Sequence record: LC788708.1
Strand: one strand, 5' to 3'
Source: Escherichia coli phage AZ21
DNA length: 64,000 nucleotides
This document shows positions 6,251-44,853 of the stretch, in pieces. The notes beneath the pieces were generated by a model. That model did not search any database. It was not told where the DNA came from and saw only the letters and a program-made list of their open reading frames with translations. A program made the position numbers and the translations under genes. The first letter of the stretch is position 1; the number at the start of each line of letters is the position of its first letter.

Positions 6251-6508
6251 ATGGGACTCTTTAGAAAGAAAGTTTATTTAACAGAAGAGCAAGAACACAA
6301 ACTTCTTACTCTATCAGAATACTATCATTTACCATATGATTATTTTGTAGATAGAGCAATAGAGGAATTCTTAGATAGAGAATTAGAGGCTATAAAACCT
6401 AAGCCTCCTGAGCCGTCTTTAGCATCAAAGGGTCACCAAAGAGAATCCCCAAGAGTTCCGCCAATGCCCCCAATTCCACCAAAAACTAGAGTTGTAACAG
6501 AGTTGTAA
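6251..6508 (+). CDS. hypothetical early protein (85 aa, Pro-rich C-terminus)
   Basis: GGAGG RBS and its own promoter. Confidence 0.6.
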   Translation: MGLFRKKVYLTEEQEHKLLTLSEYYHLPYDYFVDRAIEEFLDRELEAIKPKPPEPSLASKGHQRESPRVPPMPPIPPKTRVVTEL

Positions 6509-8544: not shown

Positions 8545-9246
8545 ATGAAAGTAAAACCATTTGGTATGCTAGATATTGAATCTCTAGGAACTCCAGGAGA
8601 TTGTGGTACTACCCATATCGCAATGCCTTCATTCGCTTTTGTGGCTATGCATGGAATTGATAAAGACCCTGATCTAGTATTTGTTACTTTAGATGTACAA
8701 GATCAACTTAATTCTGGTGCCAAAGTTACAGCATCTACTCTAGCATTCTGGATGGATCAGGCTAAACATAGCCCGTCTGCTATCCACATTATGGAAGCTA
8801 TGAATGAGCGTAATCCAAAACTGGTTGCCTTCCAAAATGGTAAACATCATTGCACTAATAAACTTGGCTCTAACCATGCTGCCTTCTCTATGGCTCAAAA
8901 TATTATGGAGTTGGCTCTAGGCGAAAATGCTTTGTATTATGGCAATGGCCCAGAGTTTGATATGACTATCTACTCTGCAAACACTTTCCATGCTGGAACC
9001 AATGAAGAAATAGTTCCGTGGAAATTCTGGAACTTGGGTAATGTTAGATCTCTTCGTAATCTCTGGATGCAAACTGGCTATAGTTATAAAGCTCTAGAAA
9101 CCGAAGGTATTAGCTGGGCAATAGCTAAAATGGAGAAGATGGACACCATTCGTTATGGGATCTATCCGGTTAAGCACGACCCAGCATTCGATGCCCTAGT
9201 TGAGAGCTATTGTGTTGCAGCTATGATCGAAAAAATGAAAATTTGA
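8545..9246 (+). CDS. DEDDh-type 3'-5' exonuclease (Rv2179c-like fold suspected)
   Basis: N-terminal MLDIESLGTPG (Exo I) and C-terminal KHDPAFDAL (Exo III H-x4-D). Confidence 0.6.
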   Translation: MKVKPFGMLDIESLGTPGDCGTTHIAMPSFAFVAMHGIDKDPDLVFVTLDVQDQLNSGAKVTASTLAFWMDQAKHSPSAIHIMEAMNERNPKLVAFQNGKHHCTNKLGSNHAAFSMAQNIMELALGENALYYGNGPEFDMTIYSANTFHAGTNEEIVPWKFWNLGNVRSLRNLWMQTGYSYKALETEGISWAIAKMEKMDTIRYGIYPVKHDPAFDALVESYCVAAMIEKMKI

Positions 9247-9247
9247 T

Positions 9248-9276
9248 TTGCTTCCGGCTCCAAAATTCTGTATAAT
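9248..9276 (+). promoter_or_regulatory. T5 early-type promoter
   Basis: TTGCTT, 17 nt, TATAAT, CATAAATTTGAG box. Confidence 0.75.
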
Positions 9277-9316
9277 ATATTCATAAATTTGAGAAAACAA
9301 TAAAAGGAAAACAAAT

Positions 9317-34904: not shown

Positions 34905-35100
34905 TGAATGCGAATGATAATGAGAATCATTTGCATTTAAAAAGCGGAATGAGAATGATAATAATTCGCATTTAAGAATGGAAGTGAGAATTATTCAGGA
35001 AGTGAAACGATTCTCATTTAAAAAGTGAAACGATTCTCATTTAGAAAGTGAAACGCGAATGATAATGATTCGTATTTAAGAATGGAAGTGAGAAACACTA
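34905..35100. promoter_or_regulatory. cluster of Fur-box-like imperfect palindromes and short tandem repeats
   Basis: 19-mers at 34916-34934 and 34951-34969 match GATAATGATAATCATTATC at 16/19 and 15/19 by hand. A 23-bp unit AGTGAAACGATTCTCATTTAAAA is tandem at 35001 and 35024. A ~40-bp direct repeat lies at 34947-34990 and 35054-35094. Confidence 0.6.
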
Positions 35101-35281
35101 TTATTTAAGTTATCCACAGACTTATCAACAGCACGATTTGACTTGACAGAATCCTAGCCATTTTGAGGCGTTATCAACAGACTTATCAACAGCTTATCCT
35201 ACTGTATAAATATACAGTATTCCTATGCAGTGAATAATTCTAATATACAGCTAAAACGCTCTCAAACGCATTCTAACGCGT
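35086..35281. repeat. left arm of a ~200-bp imperfect inverted repeat carrying DnaA-type boxes
   Basis: TTATCCACA at 35110. TTATCAACA at 35122, 35171 and 35183. Aligns with the reverse complement of 39128-39330. Confidence 0.85.
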
Positions 35282-35413
35282 TTAATTTTGGTGGGGATAC
35301 TAAAACAAGGGCAAAATTGGAGGAGGCTTGAAAATTAGTTAGCTCGCTAATGATCACACACGGCGACACGTAACACCCTAACCATTAGCAGGCTAACCAT
35401 CGCGGGCGTGGTC

Positions 35414-35434
35414 AAATGAGAATGATTCTCATTT
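35414..35434. repeat. perfect 21-bp palindrome AAATGAGAAT-G-ATTCTCATTT (Fur-box-like core)
   Basis: Read directly. The TGAGAATGATTCTCA core differs from TGATAATNATTATCA at one symmetric position pair. Confidence 0.85.
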
Positions 35435-35475
35435 GTGGATTGGGGGCGCTTCCTGATAGTTGCGCCCCGTGATTA

Positions 35476-35589
35476 TTATAGTAGGGGGCAACCGTTACGC
35501 TTTGCCCACTCCCGCCACTCATCTTGGTGCCTAGACTTGCGACGGCGTACTAAAAACCGCTTGTACCAGTGATTAAACCATCGTTTCAT
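35476..35589 (-). CDS. possible 37-aa basic Trp-rich peptide, last gene of the leftward cassette
   Basis: ATGA overlap with the upstream gene's stop. MKRWFNHWYKRFLVRRRK... Below the track cutoff. Confidence 0.35.
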   Translation of the reverse strand: MKRWFNHWYKRFLVRRRKSRHQDEWREWAKRNGCPLL

Positions 35590-35789
35590 AAATCCTCCTC
35601 CGGTAGTCGATGCGTGATCTTTTCCTCCTCCCCATAGGAATCCACCAAATACTGATAATAACCATCGTGATCATAAATCACTTTATCATATTCCCCACGC
35701 TCGACCGCTTGCCGATTTTCCAACGTATCAGGCACAAAGAAAGTATCAACGGTAACAGTAGTTTTAGTTACAACAATTTTATCACTCAT
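35586..35789 (-). CDS. pre-early-region hypothetical protein (67 aa)
   Basis: Co-directional cassette. AGGGG RBS region. Confidence 0.55.
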   Translation of the reverse strand: MSDKIVVTKTTVTVDTFFVPDTLENRQAVERGEYDKVIYDHDGYYQYLVDSYGEEEKITHRLPEEDL

Positions 35790-35809
35790 AATGCCATCGC
35801 CCCTAGAAT

Positions 35810-35828
35810 GAGAATGATTATCAATATC
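35810..35828. promoter_or_regulatory. Fur-box-like 19-mer GAGAATGATTATCAATATC
   Basis: 16/19 to the Fur consensus by hand. Lies in the intergenic gap of the leftward cassette. Confidence 0.45.
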
Positions 35829-35915
35829 ATTGTGAAGCCATTACCAAATCGTAAACGCTGGGAATGTTTCCCAGCGGTATTATTAGACTTATGGCTTTGT
35901 GTTTTTCGCCACCAG

Positions 35916-36116
35916 CTATTCACGGTAGACGCTCCATCCGTCTAGCTTCCATTCTTCCCCCTTGCGAATATTGAAAAACCAATCATTAAAATTGTAACCA
36001 TCTTCTGACATGATCACGCCGTTTTCTTTCATGTACAAAAATTCATCACTAGTAAAATATTGATTACTAACTTTAAAACCTTGTTTCATTTTTTCTAGTG
36101 CTTCATCTTTAGTCAT
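35916..36116 (-). CDS. small protein (66 aa) with DUF2829/Tad2-like N-terminal pattern (tentative)
   Basis: MTKDEALEKMKQGFKV... and a Trp-rich C-terminal part. ATGA coupling to the upstream gene. Confidence 0.55.
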   Translation of the reverse strand: MTKDEALEKMKQGFKVSNQYFTSDEFLYMKENGVIMSEDGYNFNDWFFNIRKGEEWKLDGWSVYRE

Positions 36117-36457
36117 TGCGCCACCTTTCGAAACGCTGTTTCAATACTATCCGCAGTGGATTGAATATATGCGCCTTTGAGTATCAGCCGCTCGGTGCAT
36201 ATCTTGCGAAAAATATTAATAAAATCGTCCTCATTTTCTGCGATTAATGCCTCACCCATAACCTGAACGTCGCAAGATGCAAAGGTCAAAAATTGAAACG
36301 CTAGTTCACGGGCAACGACCGCATTGATTTTATAATGCGCCTTGCCTTCATAGATATTAATAACGCCCTTATAAGCTGGCGAAAGCTGATTTAAGTAGTT
36401 TGCTAATAATGCCGGACGGCAATTAGCAACAAAACGATTGCCCTCATAAATAACCAT
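36113..36457 (-). CDS. hypothetical protein (114 aa)
   Basis: Co-directional cassette. Confidence 0.6.
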   Translation of the reverse strand: MVIYEGNRFVANCRPALLANYLNQLSPAYKGVINIYEGKAHYKINAVVARELAFQFLTFASCDVQVMGEALIAENEDDFINIFRKICTERLILKGAYIQSTADSIETAFRKVAQ

Positions 36458-36584
36458 TTGATAGTCTCCCGATTAGATAGCCAGATAATAACATAAAGAT
36501 CCCCAATAAAAGAGGATCATTCTTAAATAAGGTGGCGGTAAAACCGCCAACCATTGCAAGGAGAATAACAATAATGCTTTTCAT
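36444..36584 (-). CDS. possible 46-aa 2-TM peptide
   Basis: ATGA overlap with the upstream stop. MKSIIVILLAMVGGFTATLF...LLLGIFMLLSGYLIG. Below the track cutoff. Confidence 0.45.
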   Translation of the reverse strand: MKSIIVILLAMVGGFTATLFKNDPLLLGIFMLLSGYLIGRLSNGYL

Positions 36585-36793
36585 AGTACCCCACGAAACG
36601 CAGCGTAAAAGGTGGCAAAGTGTTTAACTGTTTCAGCAATCACGTTGCCGCGCTTATCAAATTTCTTTTCTGTAACACGAAAGGCATTTTTATTACGTGC
36701 TACATATTCGATTTTACAATCTTCCCGCTCGAACGTGTTAACATCCACCAGCTTAAAGCCTTTCGAACGTGCAAGAGAAACGTTGCGGATCAT
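36581..36793 (-). CDS. hypothetical basic protein (70 aa)
   Basis: AGGGGA RBS. Confidence 0.55.
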   Translation of the reverse strand: MIRNVSLARSKGFKLVDVNTFEREDCKIEYVARNKNAFRVTEKKFDKRGNVIAETVKHFATFYAAFRGVL

Positions 36794-36795
36794 TT

Positions 36796-36978
36796 TTATT
36801 CCCCTTTACTAGTCATGCAGCCCAGCAGATAAGAAAATACAGCGATGCCAGCACCAATAGTAACCATTGGTTTTATATTTACTAAACCGCAATAGGAATC
36901 CTGAATACCATAAGCGGTGGCGAAAAGAGTCAAAATAGCGCCCAAGATACCCGCTAAAATAGCTCGAAAAATAACCAT
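36796..36978 (-). CDS. 2-TM membrane protein (60 aa)
   Basis: GAGGAG RBS. Two hydrophobic helices. Confidence 0.55.
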   Translation of the reverse strand: MVIFRAILAGILGAILTLFATAYGIQDSYCGLVNIKPMVTIGAGIAVFSYLLGCMTSKGE

Positions 36979-37027
36979 TTGTAATACTCCTCTAGTTAGT
37001 GGGGCGAAAGTAACGCCCCGTTATTAA

Positions 37028-37258
37028 TTACATTAAAATAATTTTTGCCGCTTGTTTTTTGGTACAGTGTTCCGCTTTCAGGGTGTCCAGCAAAAAGCCC
37101 GCCGTTTGCTGATCGATTTTATCGGCATTATATAGTTCTTGGATGGTGTTATAAGTTTTAGCAATGCCGTATTCTTGTACCATTTCTTGAATAATCCAGC
37201 GATTTGATACCCAGCCTTTACCAGTGAAAAGAGCGTCAGAAGAAGAGTAAGCAACCAT
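37028..37258 (-). CDS. hypothetical protein (76 aa)
   Basis: ATG 37258 after a GGAGG RBS. The track start at 37291 lacks an RBS. Confidence 0.55.
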   Translation of the reverse strand: MVAYSSSDALFTGKGWVSNRWIIQEMVQEYGIAKTYNTIQELYNADKIDQQTAGFLLDTLKAEHCTKKQAAKIILM

Positions 37259-37321
37259 TTTAAGCCTCCAAATTTTTGGGAAAATTTTCAACCGTCCTCA
37301 AACGGTGTAAAGGCATTATAA

Positions 37322-37348
37322 CAAAAAAGGCCGCCATAAAAGGCGACC
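37322..37348 (-). terminator. rho-independent terminator (minus strand)
   Basis: GGTCGCC-ttttat-GGCGGCC followed by TTTTTT on the minus strand. Confidence 0.65.
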
Positions 37349-37364
37349 TTTACAAAACTTTACA

Positions 37365-37859
37365 TTAAACTACTTGTAAGGATTCAATATTGAAACATCG
37401 TTTCAGTTCGTCATGCAAAACGGCATATTCATCCCATCGGGTACTATCAGGAATATAAACAAGCTGTTTTAATCGGTTTGCATATATTACCGCTTTGTTA
37501 TCAATTATCTCGACGCCACCATATTTAATAATTAATTTCATGACGGAATTAATAGGATCGCCGCCGTTTACATATGCGCCGGATTTACTTAATTGATAAT
37601 GATAAAGGCTTGCATATACGTTTTCATTTTCATACCATTCGCCAGTCTCTTCGTCTTCATAGCCATCGCTACCAAAACGAGAAGCATTATCAACAGCCAT
37701 TTCATGAGCAAAAGCGTCCAGATCCGTACCAGCAGGAACAAAATATTCCTCGGTATTCCCTTCCCCGCAATAGCCAGTATGACAATCGACTAAAATGATC
37801 ATATCATGTTTAGCCTTGCTCACTTCCCCTAGCGAGAAGCCGTATTTTTCTTCTAACAT
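37365..37859 (-). CDS. hypothetical acidic protein (164 aa)
   Basis: ATG 37859 after AGGAGACTAATT. Confidence 0.65.
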   Translation of the reverse strand: MLEEKYGFSLGEVSKAKHDMIILVDCHTGYCGEGNTEEYFVPAGTDLDAFAHEMAVDNASRFGSDGYEDEETGEWYENENVYASLYHYQLSKSGAYVNGGDPINSVMKLIIKYGGVEIIDNKAVIYANRLKQLVYIPDSTRWDEYAVLHDELKRCFNIESLQVV

Positions 37860-37923
37860 AATTAGTCTCCTATTAATTAACAAGGAAATAGTAAAGCGGG
37901 GAAATAATCCCCGCTAGATATTA

Positions 37924-38157
37924 TTACTCGTTTTCGGTGTTAGTGGTAAAAGTAGAGATATCGATACCTTTTACCATTTCATCGATCATCTCAGCGATGT
38001 TAAAACTTTGCACCATTTCTAACATTGCCGCTTCCATAGCCGCCCCTGCTACCGCTTTCGCTTTCTGATTAGTCGGGGCGTACTGGTCAACCGCTACACT
38101 CAGCAGGTTAGCGATCACTACACGACCAATCGGCGTATCAATATAGCCTTTGATCAT
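37924..38157 (-). CDS. 77-aa ORF, probably the C-terminal part of the upstream gene
   Basis: Open in the +1 frame relative to 38138-38929. No RBS of its own. Confidence 0.5.
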   Translation of the reverse strand: MIKGYIDTPIGRVVIANLLSVAVDQYAPTNQKAKAVAGAAMEAAMLEMVQSFNIAEMIDEMVKGIDISTFTTNTENE

Positions 38158-38929
38158 AAACGGTGCTTTTTTTAGCCGCTACTTTCGTGATTTGAGTTAG
38201 TGCAATTTTACCAGCTTCCAGTTTTGCAGCGTTTACAACAGCGGATTTATTAGCGGCAACGATATTAGCGATCTTGGTCATGGTATTTTTTCCTTTGTTT
38301 TCAGTAGTTTGAGTATTAACGCTTTGAGTGTTAGAGCTTACAACCTGTTTTTCAATATTGTCAACTGGTTTTAGTGTAAATCCAGCATTTGCAACGTTTG
38401 ATTCATTCCCATACTCTAAATAATCACTAGGGATCAACATGTTGCCACTAGCGCGTTCAAAACATAACACGCCAGTTGTAGAAATTACATTACTATCAGC
38501 ACTTTTGTAATTAGCTGATAGTTCACGCCAAATGCTAGTTAATAACGATCCGACACTATCAGTCCTGATATTACTTACTTTTGTTGCTGTTACTTGCTCT
38601 TTTTCTTGCACGTTATATAATCGCGCAATGTAACCACTATTAGATTCACTATAACCAACAATGATAAAATCAATATCTCTTCCACGTTGATTGCGGAAAA
38701 TGTGATAATCACGGTTGAAAATTACTAGCGCCCTTTTCTGGTCTAGTAATTGTGTGAAATCTTCAACTGAATAATGAGTACCCTCATCGTCTAAAATTCT
38801 ATCATGAATCTTTTCGATAATAGTAGCGGTATGCTGTACGCTTGCCGCGCTACTACCCTCTAACAGATTGCGCAAACTGCCTTTAATAATAGTGGCGTTT
38901 GCTGGTACTGCAATTCTTACAGTAGACAT
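38138..38929 (-). CDS. first gene of the leftward cassette (263 aa as written)
   Basis: GGGAG RBS. Ends 27 nt after an A7 run at 38167-38173. Confidence 0.65.
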   Translation of the reverse strand: MSTVRIAVPANATIIKGSLRNLLEGSSAASVQHTATIIEKIHDRILDDEGTHYSVEDFTQLLDQKRALVIFNRDYHIFRNQRGRDIDFIIVGYSESNSGYIARLYNVQEKEQVTATKVSNIRTDSVGSLLTSIWRELSANYKSADSNVISTTGVLCFERASGNMLIPSDYLEYGNESNVANAGFTLKPVDNIEKQVVSSNTQSVNTQTTENKGKNTMTKIANIVAANKSAVVNAAKLEAGKIALTQITKVAAKKSTVYDQRLY

Positions 38930-38961
38930 TTTATTTTGTCTCCCTCGTTAATCGGTGAGTG

Positions 38962-38991
38962 AATGATAAGGGTAATTTTCTAGCATAGGCA
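38962..38991 (-). promoter_or_regulatory. candidate promoter of the leftward cassette
   Basis: On the minus strand: A-tract, TTGCCT, 18 nt, TATCAT. Confidence 0.4.
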
Positions 38992-39127
38992 AATATTATT
39001 TTACTTTTTTATTTTCCTTGCCTAGCGTCTAATTTTATGCTAACCGCGCAGCGGTGCAATAAAGAGCAAACCACGGCGAAGCCACCAGCCCGACGCATTG
39101 AGGCTTTACTTTAATATTACCTTACAG

Positions 39128-39330
39128 CGTTTAGCTCGTTAGAATGCGTTTTGGGCCACTTAAAATTGATTGCAGTTGTTAACACTACCTTTCTACCCTG
39201 TATATTTATACAGTGGAATAACCTGTGGATAAGTCTGTGCAAAAGTCCTTATATCACCGCCTATCGTGTCAAGTTATTTTGTGCTGTGGAAAACATTGTG
39301 GATAACTTAAATGATAGTGCTTCTCACTTA
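39128..39330. repeat. right arm of the ~200-bp imperfect inverted repeat with DnaA-type boxes
   Basis: TGTGGATAA at 39224 and 39297. TGTGGAAAA at 39285. The shared core CTGTATAAATATACAG is also present. Confidence 0.85.
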
Positions 39331-44118: not shown

Positions 44119-44853
44119 ATGAATCAAGTTAAAACGAATATTTCCCGTAACTTCCCGCATATTTCCCGCGTCATGATCTGGGATCTTGATGGCACTATCG
44201 TTAATTCATTCCATCGTGTAGCGCCTTGCTTTGATAGTGAGGGTAATCTAGATTTAAATAAGTATAAGAATGAGGCTTGCAAACATGATTTAATAATGCA
44301 GGATACTTTATTGCCTTTGGTGGAATATATGCGCCAATGCATGAATGACGCAAATACTTTAAACATTATTTGTACCGCTCGATTAATGAGCAAATCGGAT
44401 TATTATTATTTGCGCAAACAAGGCTTGCGAGGGCGTGGGGATAGCAATATCCGCGTGTTTTCCCGCGACACGCTGCATAAATATTTTGAAGCTGATAAGG
44501 TTAGCGAGATATACCACAGTAAAGACGCAGTTTATAAATCGTATTACTTTGAATTATTTAAACAGCTATATCCGAACGCTGATTTCACAATGATTGATGA
44601 TCATAAAGGTGTATTATCAGCGGCGGCGTCATACGGATTTAAAACGCTAGACGCGCAAGCCGTTAACGATATTCTATCAATCGGCGTGGCATTGATAGGC
44701 GGAACCTTTATTGATGAATCTCTCGATGATGATAATGATTATCAGTTCCTAGCCGATCGATTGAAATTATGTTGGGAAAGTATGACCGAAGAAGAACGCG
44801 CAGAATATAGTTGCAGCCCGCAACAATATATTGAGAAATTAAAAGTTGCGTAA
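44119..44853 (+). CDS. dmp: 5'-deoxyribonucleotidase (HAD family)
   Basis: 244 aa from ATG 44119. The track start at 44077 lies in hairpin 44052-44078. HAD motif I is IWDLDGTIV. Confidence 0.8.
   Translation: MNQVKTNISRNFPHISRVMIWDLDGTIVNSFHRVAPCFDSEGNLDLNKYKNEACKHDLIMQDTLLPLVEYMRQCMNDANTLNIICTARLMSKSDYYYLRKQGLRGRGDSNIRVFSRDTLHKYFEADKVSEIYHSKDAVYKSYYFELFKQLYPNADFTMIDDHKGVLSAAASYGFKTLDAQAVNDILSIGVALIGGTFIDESLDDDNDYQFLADRLKLCWESMTEEERAEYSCSPQQYIEKLKVA

What the first reader, a model, noticed from the sequence alone, without database searches (positions are those of the whole stretch)
35476..38929. A leftward cassette of about 11 tiny genes chained by ATGA/TAATG overlaps, including mini-ORFs missed by the 60-aa cutoff
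- **Composition:** between the inverted-repeat arms, the genes of 37-263 aa are packed head to tail.
- **ATGA junctions:** four junctions are 4-nt ATGA overlaps, at 36113-36116, 36581-36584, 35586-35589 and 36444-36457 (partial).
- **Extra ORFs:** two ORFs below the track threshold fit this coupling exactly. One is a 46-aa two-helix membrane peptide (36444-36584). The other is a 37-aa basic Trp-rich peptide (35476-35589).
- **Membrane content:** three products (46, 60 and possibly 77 aa) are membrane or amphipathic.
- **Unknown function:** none carries a motif I can name.
- **Why it matters:** being on the first-injected DNA, the set is a prime reservoir of host-takeover or anti-defence functions.
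Basis: partly seen in the sequence, partly recalled or inferred. Interest (0 to 1): 0.5.

Follow-up and report, generated by a model that had tools for sequence, protein, structure and literature searches.

The report
T5-like phage pre-early accessory genes
This stretch is the already-studied block of small "first-injected" accessory genes of a T5-like coliphage: its tiny extra genes are real, but the block as a whole is ordinary for this phage family, apart from one unreported candidate immune-signal sponge.

Summary
The window is E. coli phage AZ23 (Tequintavirus, 100% match). [quoted passage not shown] It lies between the known 131-bp inverted repeats next to the injection-stop region.

Corrections:
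- The 263-aa and 77-aa ORFs are two halves of one gene (T5.011/DUF7566), split by an A6-to-A7 change.
- There are no TAATG overlaps.
- Two intrinsic terminators break the chain, so only 36978-35476 is tightly coupled.
- Three products do have named families. The 114-aa protein is the T5.015 Ung-dependent AP-site nickase. The split gene is DUF7566. The 66-aa protein has a Tad2-like (DUF2829) fold.

Toxicity screens and a deletion of the whole block have already been published for T5: 011, 013 and 015 are toxic, and the block is dispensable in the laboratory. The slot after the nickase gene is a swapping hot-spot.

Verdict: a real, correctly located but already known system. The new points are a candidate Tad2-like sponge and a RefSeq/PHROG mislabel.

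The parts
38930..39030 (-). Conserved sigma-70 promoter region upstream of the first gene; homologue of the T5 promoter upstream of gene 011
   Evidence: Near-identical to the annotated T5 promoter 6411-6489 and to Lindwurm. Promoter-like hexamers at 38992-38963 and 39024-38995. Annor et al. state that the promoter upstream of 011 was characterised experimentally.
37924..38929 (-). One gene, homologue of T5.011 (DUF7566 / phrog_4263), read here as 263-aa + 77-aa ORFs because of an extra A in the run at 38167-38173
   Evidence: The two halves match positions 1-255 and 258-334 of phrog_4263 and 1-257 and 260-336 of PF24450. Relatives have A6 and a single 325-384-aa ORF. A7 has 0 hits and A6 has 28 in IMG/VR. 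Removing one A gives a 334-aa ORF 59% identical to T5.011.
37895..37915 (-). Intrinsic terminator hairpin after the T5.011 homologue
   Evidence: 8 pairs followed by a T-rich tail. Folding energy -15.7 kcal/mol, z = -5.1. T5 annotates a terminator at the same place.
37365..37859 (-). 164-aa acidic protein (phrog_6741), absent from T5; function unknown; confident model with no solved-structure relative
37326..37351 (-). Intrinsic terminator after the 164-aa gene, followed by a TGnTATAAT extended -10 element at about 37323-37315 (the promoter is inferred)
   Evidence: 10 pairs plus T6. Folding energy -17.2 kcal/mol. The sequence is read directly.
37028..37258 (-). 76-aa protein, homologue of T5.012 (phrog_5145); unknown function; followed by a hairpin at 37001-37019 with no T tail
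   Evidence: Not toxic in T5.
36796..36978 (-). 60-aa protein with two membrane segments, homologue of T5.013 (phrog_5607)
   Evidence: T5 gene 013 causes lysis-like toxicity on expression. Relatives carry 48-49-aa or 59-60-aa forms.
36581..36793 (-). 70-aa basic protein, homologue of T5.014 (phrog_4227), 94-100% conserved in the full-length intact copies (one phage, both repeat copies L019/L025, carries a broken copy); function unknown. The RefSeq/PHROG name 'Ung-dependent endonuclease' on this family appears misplaced
36444..36584 (-). 46-aa mini-gene with two hydrophobic segments (phrog_19184); ATGA overlap upstream and 14-nt overlap downstream; not annotated in AZ23; absent from T5
   Evidence: Annotated in chee130_1, GRNsp8, TrudiGerster and Bas33.
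36113..36457 (-). 114-aa homologue of T5.015, the Ung-dependent nickase of abasic sites (92% identical to T5)
   Evidence: UniRef name and Pfam PF26847 sit on the 114-aa family. The homologue cited by Mahata et al., EFG4537521.1, is a 114-aa protein.
35916..36116 (-). 66-aa acidic protein (phrog_3474) with a Tad2-like (DUF2829) fold; candidate nucleotide-signal sponge; it occupies a variable slot
   Evidence: Counter-evidence.
35786..35923 (-). 45-aa mini-gene (GTG start here, ATG in several relatives) with a basic N-terminus and a C-terminal membrane segment. It contains a stable hairpin (35856-35876) and a Fur-box-like DNA motif (35810-35828). Not annotated in AZ23
   Evidence: (annotated in about 9 phages).
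35586..35789 (-). 67-aa acidic protein, homologue of T5.017 (phrog_6973); unknown function
   Evidence: Not toxic in T5.
35476..35589 (-). 37-aa basic Trp-rich mini-gene with a strong GGAGGAGG Shine-Dalgarno sequence and an ATGA overlap upstream. Not annotated in AZ23 or in the T5 record AY543070
   Evidence: (annotated in slur09, T5_ev219, NBEco002 and others).
35443..35468 (-). Hairpin closing the cassette; equivalent of the T5 'putative rho-independent terminator' at 9275-9296
   Evidence: -15.9 kcal/mol, z = -3.6. It has no T tract.
35086..35217 (.). Inverted-repeat arm next to the injection-stop region (Davison's IRD'-spacer-IRC'), with TTATCAACA DnaA-type boxes
39198..39329 (.). Partner inverted-repeat arm (IRC-spacer-IRD), with a TGTGGATAA DnaA box

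Best explanation
Region 35476-38929 is the 'right arm' of the pre-early (first-step-transfer) region of a T5-like phage.

**What it is.** It is a mosaic block of 11 small accessory genes, read leftward in the window from a conserved strong sigma-70 promoter. It lies between two 131-bp inverted repeats that border the injection-stop region.

**Inferred expression.** By homology with T5, this DNA is on the roughly 8% of the genome that enters the cell first, and host RNA polymerase expresses it in the first minutes.

**Transcription units.**
- The T5.011 homologue, followed by a terminator.
- The 164-aa gene, followed by a terminator.
- A unit starting at the T5.012 homologue. From 36978 to 35476 this unit packs eight genes head to tail with ATGA, 8-nt and 14-nt overlaps, which allow translational coupling.

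**What the products do.** They are dispensable accessory host-takeover factors.
- Shown for T5 homologues: the 114-aa protein nicks abasic sites made by host Ung; the DUF7566 protein and the two-segment membrane protein are toxic.
- Inferred here: the 66-aa protein is a Tad2-like fold and a candidate immune-signal sponge.
- Unknown role: the three mini-proteins of 46, 45 and 37 aa are real, selected products, two of them membrane-embedded.

**The 263/77-aa split.** It is a one-base homopolymer difference in the T5.011 homologue, either a sequencing error or an inactivating mutation of a toxic gene. It is not two genes.
For: - **Identity and synteny:**
- **Promoter conservation:**. **Inverted repeats:**
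- **Terminators and hairpins:**
- **Junctions and Shine-Dalgarno sequences:**
- **Family assignments:**
- **Frameshift:**
- **Mini-ORF conservation and selection:**
- **Published function, toxicity and dispensability in T5:**
- **Published pre-early transcription and proteomics in Tequintavirus Bas33:**
- **Tad2-like fold:**
- **Mosaicism of the slot after the nickase gene:**
Against: - No experimental data exist for AZ23 itself.
- First injection and timing are inferred by homology. The AZ23 record (104 kb) carries one collapsed copy of the repeat, so the terminal-repeat position cannot be read from it.
- Translation of the three mini-ORFs is inferred from selection, not observed. In the Bas33 RNA-seq table the 41-aa homologue has almost no assigned reads. 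This is likely an artefact of overlapping features, but it gives no support.
- The Tad2 link is below Pfam's threshold. A wide family profile does not reach SPO1 Tad2, and hhalign aligns only 22 N-terminal columns.
- The promoter after the second terminator is only read by eye.
Confidence: 0.85

Rival explanations
1. The mini-ORFs (46, 45 and 37 aa) are not genes. Their conservation reflects DNA- or RNA-level constraints: ribosome-binding sites of neighbours, a hairpin, a Fur-box-like site, or the start of the injection-stop region.
For: - The 45-aa ORF contains a conserved hairpin, and phage Eos keeps it with a different stem sequence. It also contains a Fur-box-like motif conserved at the nucleotide level.
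- Shivani's annotators placed a terminator there.
- The 37-aa ORF lies inside the T5 'iss' feature.
- No PHROG family exists for the 45-aa or 37-aa ORFs.
- The C-terminus of the 46-aa ORF varies between 41, 43, 46 and 47 aa.
Against: - In-frame dN/dS is 0.11-0.39 for all three, against about 0.3-5 in both other frames of the same DNA.
- Start and stop positions are kept in relatives with only 52-60% amino-acid identity.
- Each has a Shine-Dalgarno sequence.
- The hydrophobic pattern is kept through non-identical residues.
- DNA-level elements may coexist with coding in the 45-aa ORF, but they do not explain the excess of synonymous changes.
Confidence: 0.08
2. One reading: one continuous leftward operon of about 11 independent tiny genes, translationally chained throughout, with the 263-aa and 77-aa ORFs as separate genes.
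For: - Four ATGA junctions plus 8-nt and 14-nt overlaps lie between 36584 and 35586.
- A single strong conserved promoter sits upstream.
- Terminator read-through is possible.
Against: - Two canonical intrinsic terminators and 64-106-nt spacers separate the first three genes.
- The 263/77 pair is one family split at a homopolymer.
- There is no Shine-Dalgarno sequence before the 77-aa ORF.
Confidence: 0.07
3. The A7 run is a genuine, selected inactivation (or slippage-controlled expression) of a toxic gene rather than a sequencing error. Occasional polymerase or ribosome slippage on the A-run would then restore a low dose of full-length protein.
For: - T5 gene 011 is toxic, and the wild-type gene could not be cloned.
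- A second phage assembly (phiAPCEc03, L012) has A5 in the same run, which also breaks the frame.
- Homopolymers are slippage-prone (general knowledge).
Against: - Thirty-three of the 35 compared loci (32 without AZ23's own record) and 28 IMG/VR stretches have A6.
- Single-base homopolymer miscounts are the commonest assembly error (general knowledge).
- A7 is short for efficient slippage.
- Both halves remain free of further stop codons or frameshifts in their own frames, as expected for a very recent change or an error.
Confidence: 0.3
4. The 66-aa protein only looks like Tad2. It is a small alpha/beta protein with another role (for example a protein-protein inhibitor) and does not bind a nucleotide signal.
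For: - The Pfam score of 17.8 bits is below the 25-bit cut-off.
- A 94-sequence family profile does not hit Tad2 in the PDB.
- hhalign probability is 34% over 22 columns.
- The Tad2 ligand contacts W25/N26 align to F21/T22, and the W73/D79 region is not aligned.
- The protein is 23 residues shorter than SPO1 Tad2.
Against: - Tad2 is the top hit by three independent routes: Pfam, PDB sequence search and PDB fold search at probability 0.96, with the next hit at 0.12.
- The viral structure library returns many proteins annotated as DUF2829/Tad2-like. These include 60-63-aa ones at TM 0.65-0.74.
- Of the wider family, 21 of 94 members hit PF11195, the best at E = 1e-5.
Confidence: 0.5

Closest known systems
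Phage T5 pre-early genes T5.011-T5.017 (right half of the first-step-transfer DNA, AY543070 6495-9264)
   Same: - Same order and orientation, same promoter, and same flanking IRC/IRD inverted repeats and injection-stop repeats.
- Amino-acid identity is 48% for the N-terminal and 96% for the C-terminal part of the 011 homologue (59% for the repaired protein), then 91%, 93%, 100%, 92% and 82% for the 012, 013, 014, 015 and 017 homologues, and 86% for the 37-aa ORF.
   Different: - AZ23 has three genes that T5 lacks: the 164-aa, 46-aa and 45-aa genes.
- It carries a Tad2-like 66-aa gene where T5 has the unrelated T5.016.
- It has a frameshifted 011 homologue with a divergent N-terminal domain.
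T5.015, Ung-dependent nickase of abasic sites (Mahata et al. 2021, PMC8201957; Pfam PF26847)
   Same: The 114-aa product (36113-36457) is 92% identical to T5.015 and has the same length and position.
   Different: Activity was not tested here. RefSeq and PHROGs attach this name to the neighbouring 70-aa family instead, which conflicts with UniProt/Pfam and with the accession cited in the paper.
Tad2 (SPO1 Gp34.65, DUF2829/PF11195), a phage sponge for Thoeris and other nucleotide immune signals
   Same: - N-terminal helix motif (EAL..lkqG.kV) followed by a small antiparallel sheet with short helices.
- Best PDB fold match.
- Phage-encoded, small and acidic.
   Different: - 66 aa against 89 aa, and below the Pfam threshold.
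- Ligand-contact residues are not conserved as such.
- Oligomeric state and ligand are unknown.
- No paper in the searched library links Tad2 to T5-like phages.
Early 'host-takeover' gene clusters of other virulent coliphages (T7 class I genes, T4 immediate-early small ORFs); comparison from general knowledge
   Same: Densely packed small, mostly dispensable, often toxic genes at the genome end that enters first, expressed by host RNA polymerase, with high turnover between relatives.
   Different: Here expression is separated from the rest of the genome by a physical pause in DNA injection. The block is duplicated in the terminal repeats of T5-like phages.

Membership tests
T5-like first-step-transfer (pre-early) right-arm gene block | Homology and synteny with T5.011-T5.017 | tested here: met
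   tblastn against T5 and 40 other loci. PHROG families match one-to-one.
T5-like first-step-transfer (pre-early) right-arm gene block | Lies between the IRC-spacer-IRD and IRD'-spacer-IRC' inverted repeats that carry DnaA boxes, next to the repeat-rich injection-stop region | tested here: met
   Arms at 35086-35217 and 39198-39329, 83% complementary, containing TTATCAACA and TGTGGATAA. Described by Davison.
T5-like first-step-transfer (pre-early) right-arm gene block | Divergent from the A2-A1-dmp unit and driven by the conserved promoter upstream of gene 011 | tested here: met
   In the syntenic phage Lindwurm, the genes to the right of 40000 are named A2, A1 and dmp; AZ23's own record calls them hypothetical. 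The promoter region is near-identical to T5.
T5-like first-step-transfer (pre-early) right-arm gene block | Located in the terminal direct repeat and injected first, before the pause | not testable with these tools
   The AZ23 record is 104,075 bp with a single collapsed copy. There are no injection data.
T5.015 AP-site endonuclease family (PF26847) | Full-length sequence similarity to the protein studied by Mahata et al. | tested here: met
   92% identity over 114 aa. EFG4537521.1, cited in the paper, is a 114-aa member. PF26847 is on the 114-aa gene of the E. coli contig.
T5.015 AP-site endonuclease family (PF26847) | Binds host Ung and nicks abasic sites; toxic in ung+ cells | not testable with these tools
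   Biochemistry only; published for T5.
DUF7566 (PF24450) / T5.011 | Match to the family model over its full length in one polypeptide | tested here: not met
   The model is covered (1-257 and 260-336) but by two ORFs in different frames. It becomes intact after removing one A.
Tad2 / DUF2829 (PF11195) | Score above Pfam's gathering threshold | tested here: not met
   17.8 bits against a 25-bit cut-off, E = 0.005. Ten of 13 close and 21 of 94 distant family members give hits at the E-value limits used (1 and 0.01); the window protein itself is below Pfam's cut-off.
Tad2 / DUF2829 (PF11195) | Fold: N-terminal helix, then an antiparallel sheet with two short helices in the loops | tested here: met
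   - AF2 model with pLDDT 92.
- The top two PDB hits are SPO1 Tad2, probability 0.96 and 0.85, TM 0.58.
- BFVD hits to DUF2829/Tad2-like proteins at TM 0.6-0.74.
Tad2 / DUF2829 (PF11195) | Ligand-contact residues of SPO1 Tad2 (W25, N26, W73, D79) | tested here: inconclusive
   The pairwise alignment puts F21/T22 opposite W25/N26. The C-terminal contacts fall outside the aligned part. Tad2 homologues are known to bind different ligands.
Tad2 / DUF2829 (PF11195) | Homotetramer that sequesters a nucleotide immune signal and restores infection on defended hosts | not testable with these tools
   Needs biochemistry and phage assays.
Small membrane proteins of the T5 pre-early region (T5.013 / phrog_5607; phrog_19184) | Family match plus predicted membrane segments | tested here: met
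   - 60-aa product: phrog_5607, E = 1e-31, two hydrophobic segments.
- 46-aa product: phrog_19184, E = 2e-28, two hydrophobic segments.

The most novel reading that the evidence does not exclude
The 66-aa product (35916-36116) may represent a compact, roughly 65-residue branch of the Tad2/DUF2829 sponge superfamily. That branch has 584 cluster representatives at E <= 0.001. T5-like phages of enterobacteria would place it on the first-injected 8% of their DNA, in a gene-swapping slot. A signal-sequestering protein would then already be present before the bulk of the genome, and any trigger of Thoeris-, Pycsar- or CBASS-type immunity, enters the cell.
Probability: 0.3. Interest if true: 0.55.

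Novelty: already known. Interest (0 to 1): 0.3.

Why it matters
- **Annotation.** Three real genes (46, 45 and 37 aa) are missing from the AZ23 record, and one gene is split.
- **Database label.** The widely propagated RefSeq/PHROG name for the Ung-dependent nickase sits on the wrong neighbouring family. This will mislead anyone who uses those labels.
- **Biology.** The block is a well-defined, lab-dispensable, rapidly swapping set of first-expressed genes. It is a sensible place to look for anti-defence functions. The Tad2-like protein in the variable slot is a concrete, cheaply testable candidate.
- **Limits.** None of this changes how T5-like pre-early regions are understood.

Tried and rejected
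- **PHROG, Pfam and NCBIfam scans.** Scans of ten products gave no NCBIfam hit of value. There is no PHROG family for the 37-aa and 45-aa ORFs.
- **The afdb50 fold library** was unavailable.
- **A Tad2 profile for comparison.** Searching with the 46-residue SPO1 fragment returned only one PF11195 protein. The resulting hhalign was weak.
- **A 94-member family profile against the PDB** lost the Tad2 hit.
- **The 45-aa ORF as non-coding.** I first took it for intergenic sequence with a terminator. I rejected that after finding it in 229 records, with ATG starts in several relatives and dN/dS of 0.17-0.39.
- **The 70-aa protein as the nickase.** I first accepted the PHROG name. I rejected it after tracing the accession cited in the paper to the 114-aa family.
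- **Programmed frameshifting at the A-run.** The frame needed is +1 or -2, and A6 is near-universal, so an error or mutation is the simpler reading.
- **Davison 2015 (PMC4743489)** is not held.
- **Bas33 RNA-seq counts** for the 41-aa homologue are uninformative.

Full report
**Identity of the region.** A megablast of 35300-39100 finds a 100% match to Escherichia coli phage AZ23 (LC788707.1, Demerecviridae, Tequintavirus). Partial matches occur in 440 phage records, nearly all T5-like phages of Escherichia and Salmonella.

In the AZ23 record nine 'hypothetical protein' CDSs cover the cassette. In the better annotated relative Lindwurm, the genes to the right of the cassette and divergent from it are A2, A1 and the deoxynucleoside-5'-monophosphatase. 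These are the hallmark pre-early genes of T5.

The T5 record (AY543070) shows the same arrangement inside the left terminal repeat, 'first-step-transfer DNA; enters host cell first'. The order there is promoter, T5.011, terminator, T5.012 to T5.017, terminator, injection-stop signal. The window is the reverse complement of the T5 map.

**The observation.**
- ATGA stop/start overlaps lie at 36113-36116, 36581-36584 and 35586-35589.
- The 46-aa and 114-aa ORFs overlap by 14 nt at 36444-36457.
- I found one more ATGA junction (35786-35789) and an 8-nt overlap (35916-35923).
- There is no TAATG overlap. The 60/70-aa junction is TAAAAATG.
- The flanking inverted-repeat arms are real: 35086-35217 and 39198-39329, 83% complementary. 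They correspond to the IRD'-spacer-IRC' and IRC-spacer-IRD repeats with DnaA boxes described by Davison.
- Overlapping junctions are also frequent among the plus-strand genes upstream in the same genome. The coupling is normal phage packing, not a special feature.

**The 263-aa and 77-aa ORFs are one gene.**
- They match positions 1-255 and 258-334 of phrog_4263, and 1-257 and 260-336 of Pfam DUF7566. Lindwurm has a single 987-nt CDS there.
- In 33 of the 35 compared loci (32 without AZ23's own record) the sequence is GCT AAA AAA GCA CCG, with six A. A single ORF of 325-384 aa runs through it. AZ23 has seven A (38167-38173), and phiAPCEc03 has five.
- In IMG/VR the A7 form has 0 matches and the A6 form has 28.
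- Removing one A gives a 334-aa protein 59% identical to T5.011.
- The ATG of the '77-aa gene' has no Shine-Dalgarno sequence and is ATT in four relatives, so it is an internal methionine.
- I cannot tell whether A7 is an assembly error or a real disruption of a toxic gene.
- The N-terminal 255 residues vary widely between phages (43-86% identity), while the C-terminal 77 are 94-100% conserved.

**The chain is interrupted.**
- Canonical intrinsic terminators follow the T5.011 homologue (37915-37895) and the 164-aa gene (37351-37326). Their folding energies are -15.7 and -17.2 kcal/mol.
- A TGTTATAAT extended -10 element follows the second terminator. This is read by eye and is an inference.
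- Further stable hairpins lie after the T5.012 homologue, inside the 45-aa ORF and after the 37-aa ORF.
- The promoter region upstream of the first gene is almost identical to the T5 promoter upstream of 011. Annor et al. list that promoter as experimentally characterised.
- Only the eight genes from 36978 to 35476 are packed head to tail.

**The mini-ORFs are real genes.**

*The 46-aa ORF.*
- It matches phrog_19184 at E = 2e-28.
- It is present full-length in 159 phage records, down to 52% amino-acid identity.
- It is annotated in chee130_1, GRNsp8, TrudiGerster and Bas33 with the same overlaps.
- T5 lacks it.
- Its core of 41 residues is conserved, while the C-terminus ends at 41, 43, 46 or 47 residues.

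*The 37-aa ORF.*
- It has no PHROG family but is found in 62 records. One is T5 (9154-9264, 86% identity), where AY543070 does not annotate it.
- Several other phage records do annotate it.

*The 45-aa ORF.*
- It occurs in 229 records and starts with ATG in several phages.
- It keeps its frame and length even in the distant phage Eos, and it is annotated in about nine phages.

*Selection and signals.*
- Nei-Gojobori estimates give in-frame dN/dS of 0.11-0.32 (46 aa), 0.16-0.23 (37 aa) and 0.17-0.39 (45 aa). The two other frames of the same DNA give about 0.3-5. Accepted neighbours give 0.05-0.23.
- All three have Shine-Dalgarno sequences; the 37-aa ORF has GGAGGAGG.
- By hydropathy, the 60-aa and 46-aa products have two hydrophobic segments each. 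The 45-aa product has a basic N-terminus and one C-terminal segment. The 37-aa product is very basic, with four Trp. The 77-aa fragment is not strongly hydrophobic.

With the split gene counted once, the cassette holds 11 genes.

**What is known about function.** Mahata et al. expressed T5.002-T5.017 individually. They found 008, 011 and 015 toxic, and showed that 015 binds Ung and nicks the abasic sites it makes.

Annor et al. repeated the screen for all 17 pre-early genes:
- They found dmp, A1, hdi, hegG, 011, 013 and 015 toxic.
- 013 gave a lysis-like phenotype and 011 disorganised the nucleoid.
- A T5 mutant lacking hegG to 017 is viable.
- 016 is among the least frequent of these genes across the family.

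Transcriptome and proteome data for the pre-early region of Tequintavirus Bas33 also exist. They have not been done for the 164-aa, 46-aa, 45-aa, 66-aa and 37-aa products.

**Which gene is the nickase.** PHROGs and RefSeq put 'endonuclease nicking abasic sites generated by host uracil glycosylase Ung' on the 70-aa family (T5.014, YP_006842.1). UniRef calls that protein 'ORF015'. UniProt/UniRef and Pfam PF26847 put the AP-endonuclease name on the 114-aa family, locus tag T5.015.

Three facts settle it:
- The paper's list of tested genes follows the AY543070 locus tags.
- Annor et al., using NC_005859 numbering, found 015 toxic and 014 not.
- The homologue accession that the paper cites, EFG4537521.1, is a 114-aa protein.

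The nickase homologue in the window is therefore 36113-36457. The label on the 70-aa family looks like a numbering mix-up.

**The 66-aa protein.** Evidence for a Tad2 link:
- Pfam gives a sub-threshold hit to 'Tad2-like' (PF11195, E = 0.005, 17.8 bits against a 25-bit cut-off).
- The best PDB sequence hit is SPO1 Gp34.65, which is Tad2 (E = 0.02).
- An AlphaFold2 model from 13 homologues is confident (pLDDT 92.4). It has an N-terminal helix, short strands and two short helices.
- Its two best Foldseek hits in the PDB are SPO1 Tad2 bound to gcADPR (probability 0.96 and 0.85, TM 0.58). The next hit has probability 0.12.
- In the viral structure library its neighbours include many proteins named DUF2829 or Thoeris anti-defence 2-like. 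Among them are 60-63-residue ones at TM 0.65-0.74.
- A profile search of 1.84 billion representatives finds 584 relatives, mostly 60-75 residues. Of 94 of these, 21 hit PF11195, the best at E = 1e-5.

Evidence against:
- The 94-member profile does not reach Tad2 in the PDB.
- hhalign to one bona fide PF11195 protein aligns only the first 22 columns, at probability 34%.
- The Tad2 ligand contacts W25/N26 align with F21/T22, and the W73/D79 region is not aligned.

I conclude that the protein has a Tad2-like fold and is probably a distant relative. A sponge function is a hypothesis. Tad2 relatives are known to bind varied signals. No paper in the searched library links Tad2 with T5-like phages.

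**Mosaicism.** The position just downstream of the nickase gene holds at least seven alternative contents in 30-odd relatives:
- the Tad2-like gene plus the 45-aa gene;
- a 71-aa gene;
- T5.016;
- two different roughly 52-aa membrane genes;
- an 87-aa gene;
- a 70-aa gene;
- the 45-aa gene alone;
- nothing.

The 164-aa, 46-aa and 37-aa genes also come and go. This agrees with Davison's remark that this coding region is far more variable than the flanking repeats. It fits accessory, conflict-related functions.

**Verdict.** The feature is real and correctly located, but it is the known right-arm pre-early block of T5-like phages. Several details are wrong: the split gene, the TAATG overlaps, the single chain and the claim of no motifs.

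The new items are modest:
- three unannotated genes in this record;
- a candidate Tad2-like protein on first-injected DNA;
- a database mislabel;
- Fur-box-like palindromes noticed nearby.

Noticed in passing
34916-34972, 35058-35076, 35415-35433, 35807-35828, 44725-44749: There is a cluster of Fur-box-like sequences. The E. coli Fur consensus GATAATGATAATCATTATC has 6 matches at <=3 mismatches, against 0.05 expected. The related palindrome AATGAGAATCATTCTCATT (perfect at 35415-35433) has 10 matches, all within 34919-35825, against 0.04 expected. The motif recurs 2-4 times in the injection-stop region of T5, Lindwurm, GRNsp8, Eos and others. The sections of Davison's paper that I read mention palindromes and DnaA boxes, not Fur.
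   Followed up: partly
36581-36793 versus 36113-36457: RefSeq (NC_005859 T5.014, YP_006842.1) and PHROG phrog_4227 name the 70-aa family as the Ung-dependent abasic-site endonuclease. UniProt/Pfam PF26847 and the accession cited in the original paper (EFG4537521.1, 114 aa) point to the 114-aa T5.015 family. The label has spread to many phage records.
   Followed up: yes
35856-35876 (inside the 45-aa ORF): A stable hairpin (-16.7 kcal/mol) followed by UUUACGAUUU lies inside a coding mini-gene. In phage Eos the stem sequence differs but a hairpin is kept. In IMG/VR locus L030 the loop is exactly inverted (AAACATT to AATGTTT), changing KH to NV in the peptide. This may be an internal attenuator or terminator that overlaps coding sequence.
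   Followed up: partly
37924-38929: The DUF7566/T5.011 homologue has a hypervariable N-terminal roughly 255 residues (43-86% identity between phages) joined to a nearly invariant C-terminal 77 residues (94-100%). This suggests a variable target-recognition domain on a conserved effector or anchoring module.
   Followed up: no
Loci L003, L008, L014, L023, L027, L028, L030, L031, L036, L045 (downstream of the 114-aa gene); not in the window: A 31-aa ORF (MKLYIFVGNVEAANDSAGGDNVRHYWQKYIY and variants) recurs in many relatives in the variable slot. In T5 it overlaps the start of T5.016. It may be another unannotated mini-gene or a remnant.
   Followed up: no
Bas33 complement(90079..90204), from the supplement of PMC13250531: The 41-aa homologue of the 46-aa mini-gene is annotated as bas33_0173. 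It has a mean expression value of 1.6, against about 590 for both neighbours. This is most likely because reads overlapping several features were not counted. Small overlapping genes are therefore invisible in that data set.
   Followed up: no
37365-37859 and relatives P0196, P0197, P0199: Some homologues of the 164-aa protein carry a 17-25-residue insertion with a CPEC...C..C pattern, resembling a zinc ribbon, at the acidic loop.
   Followed up: no
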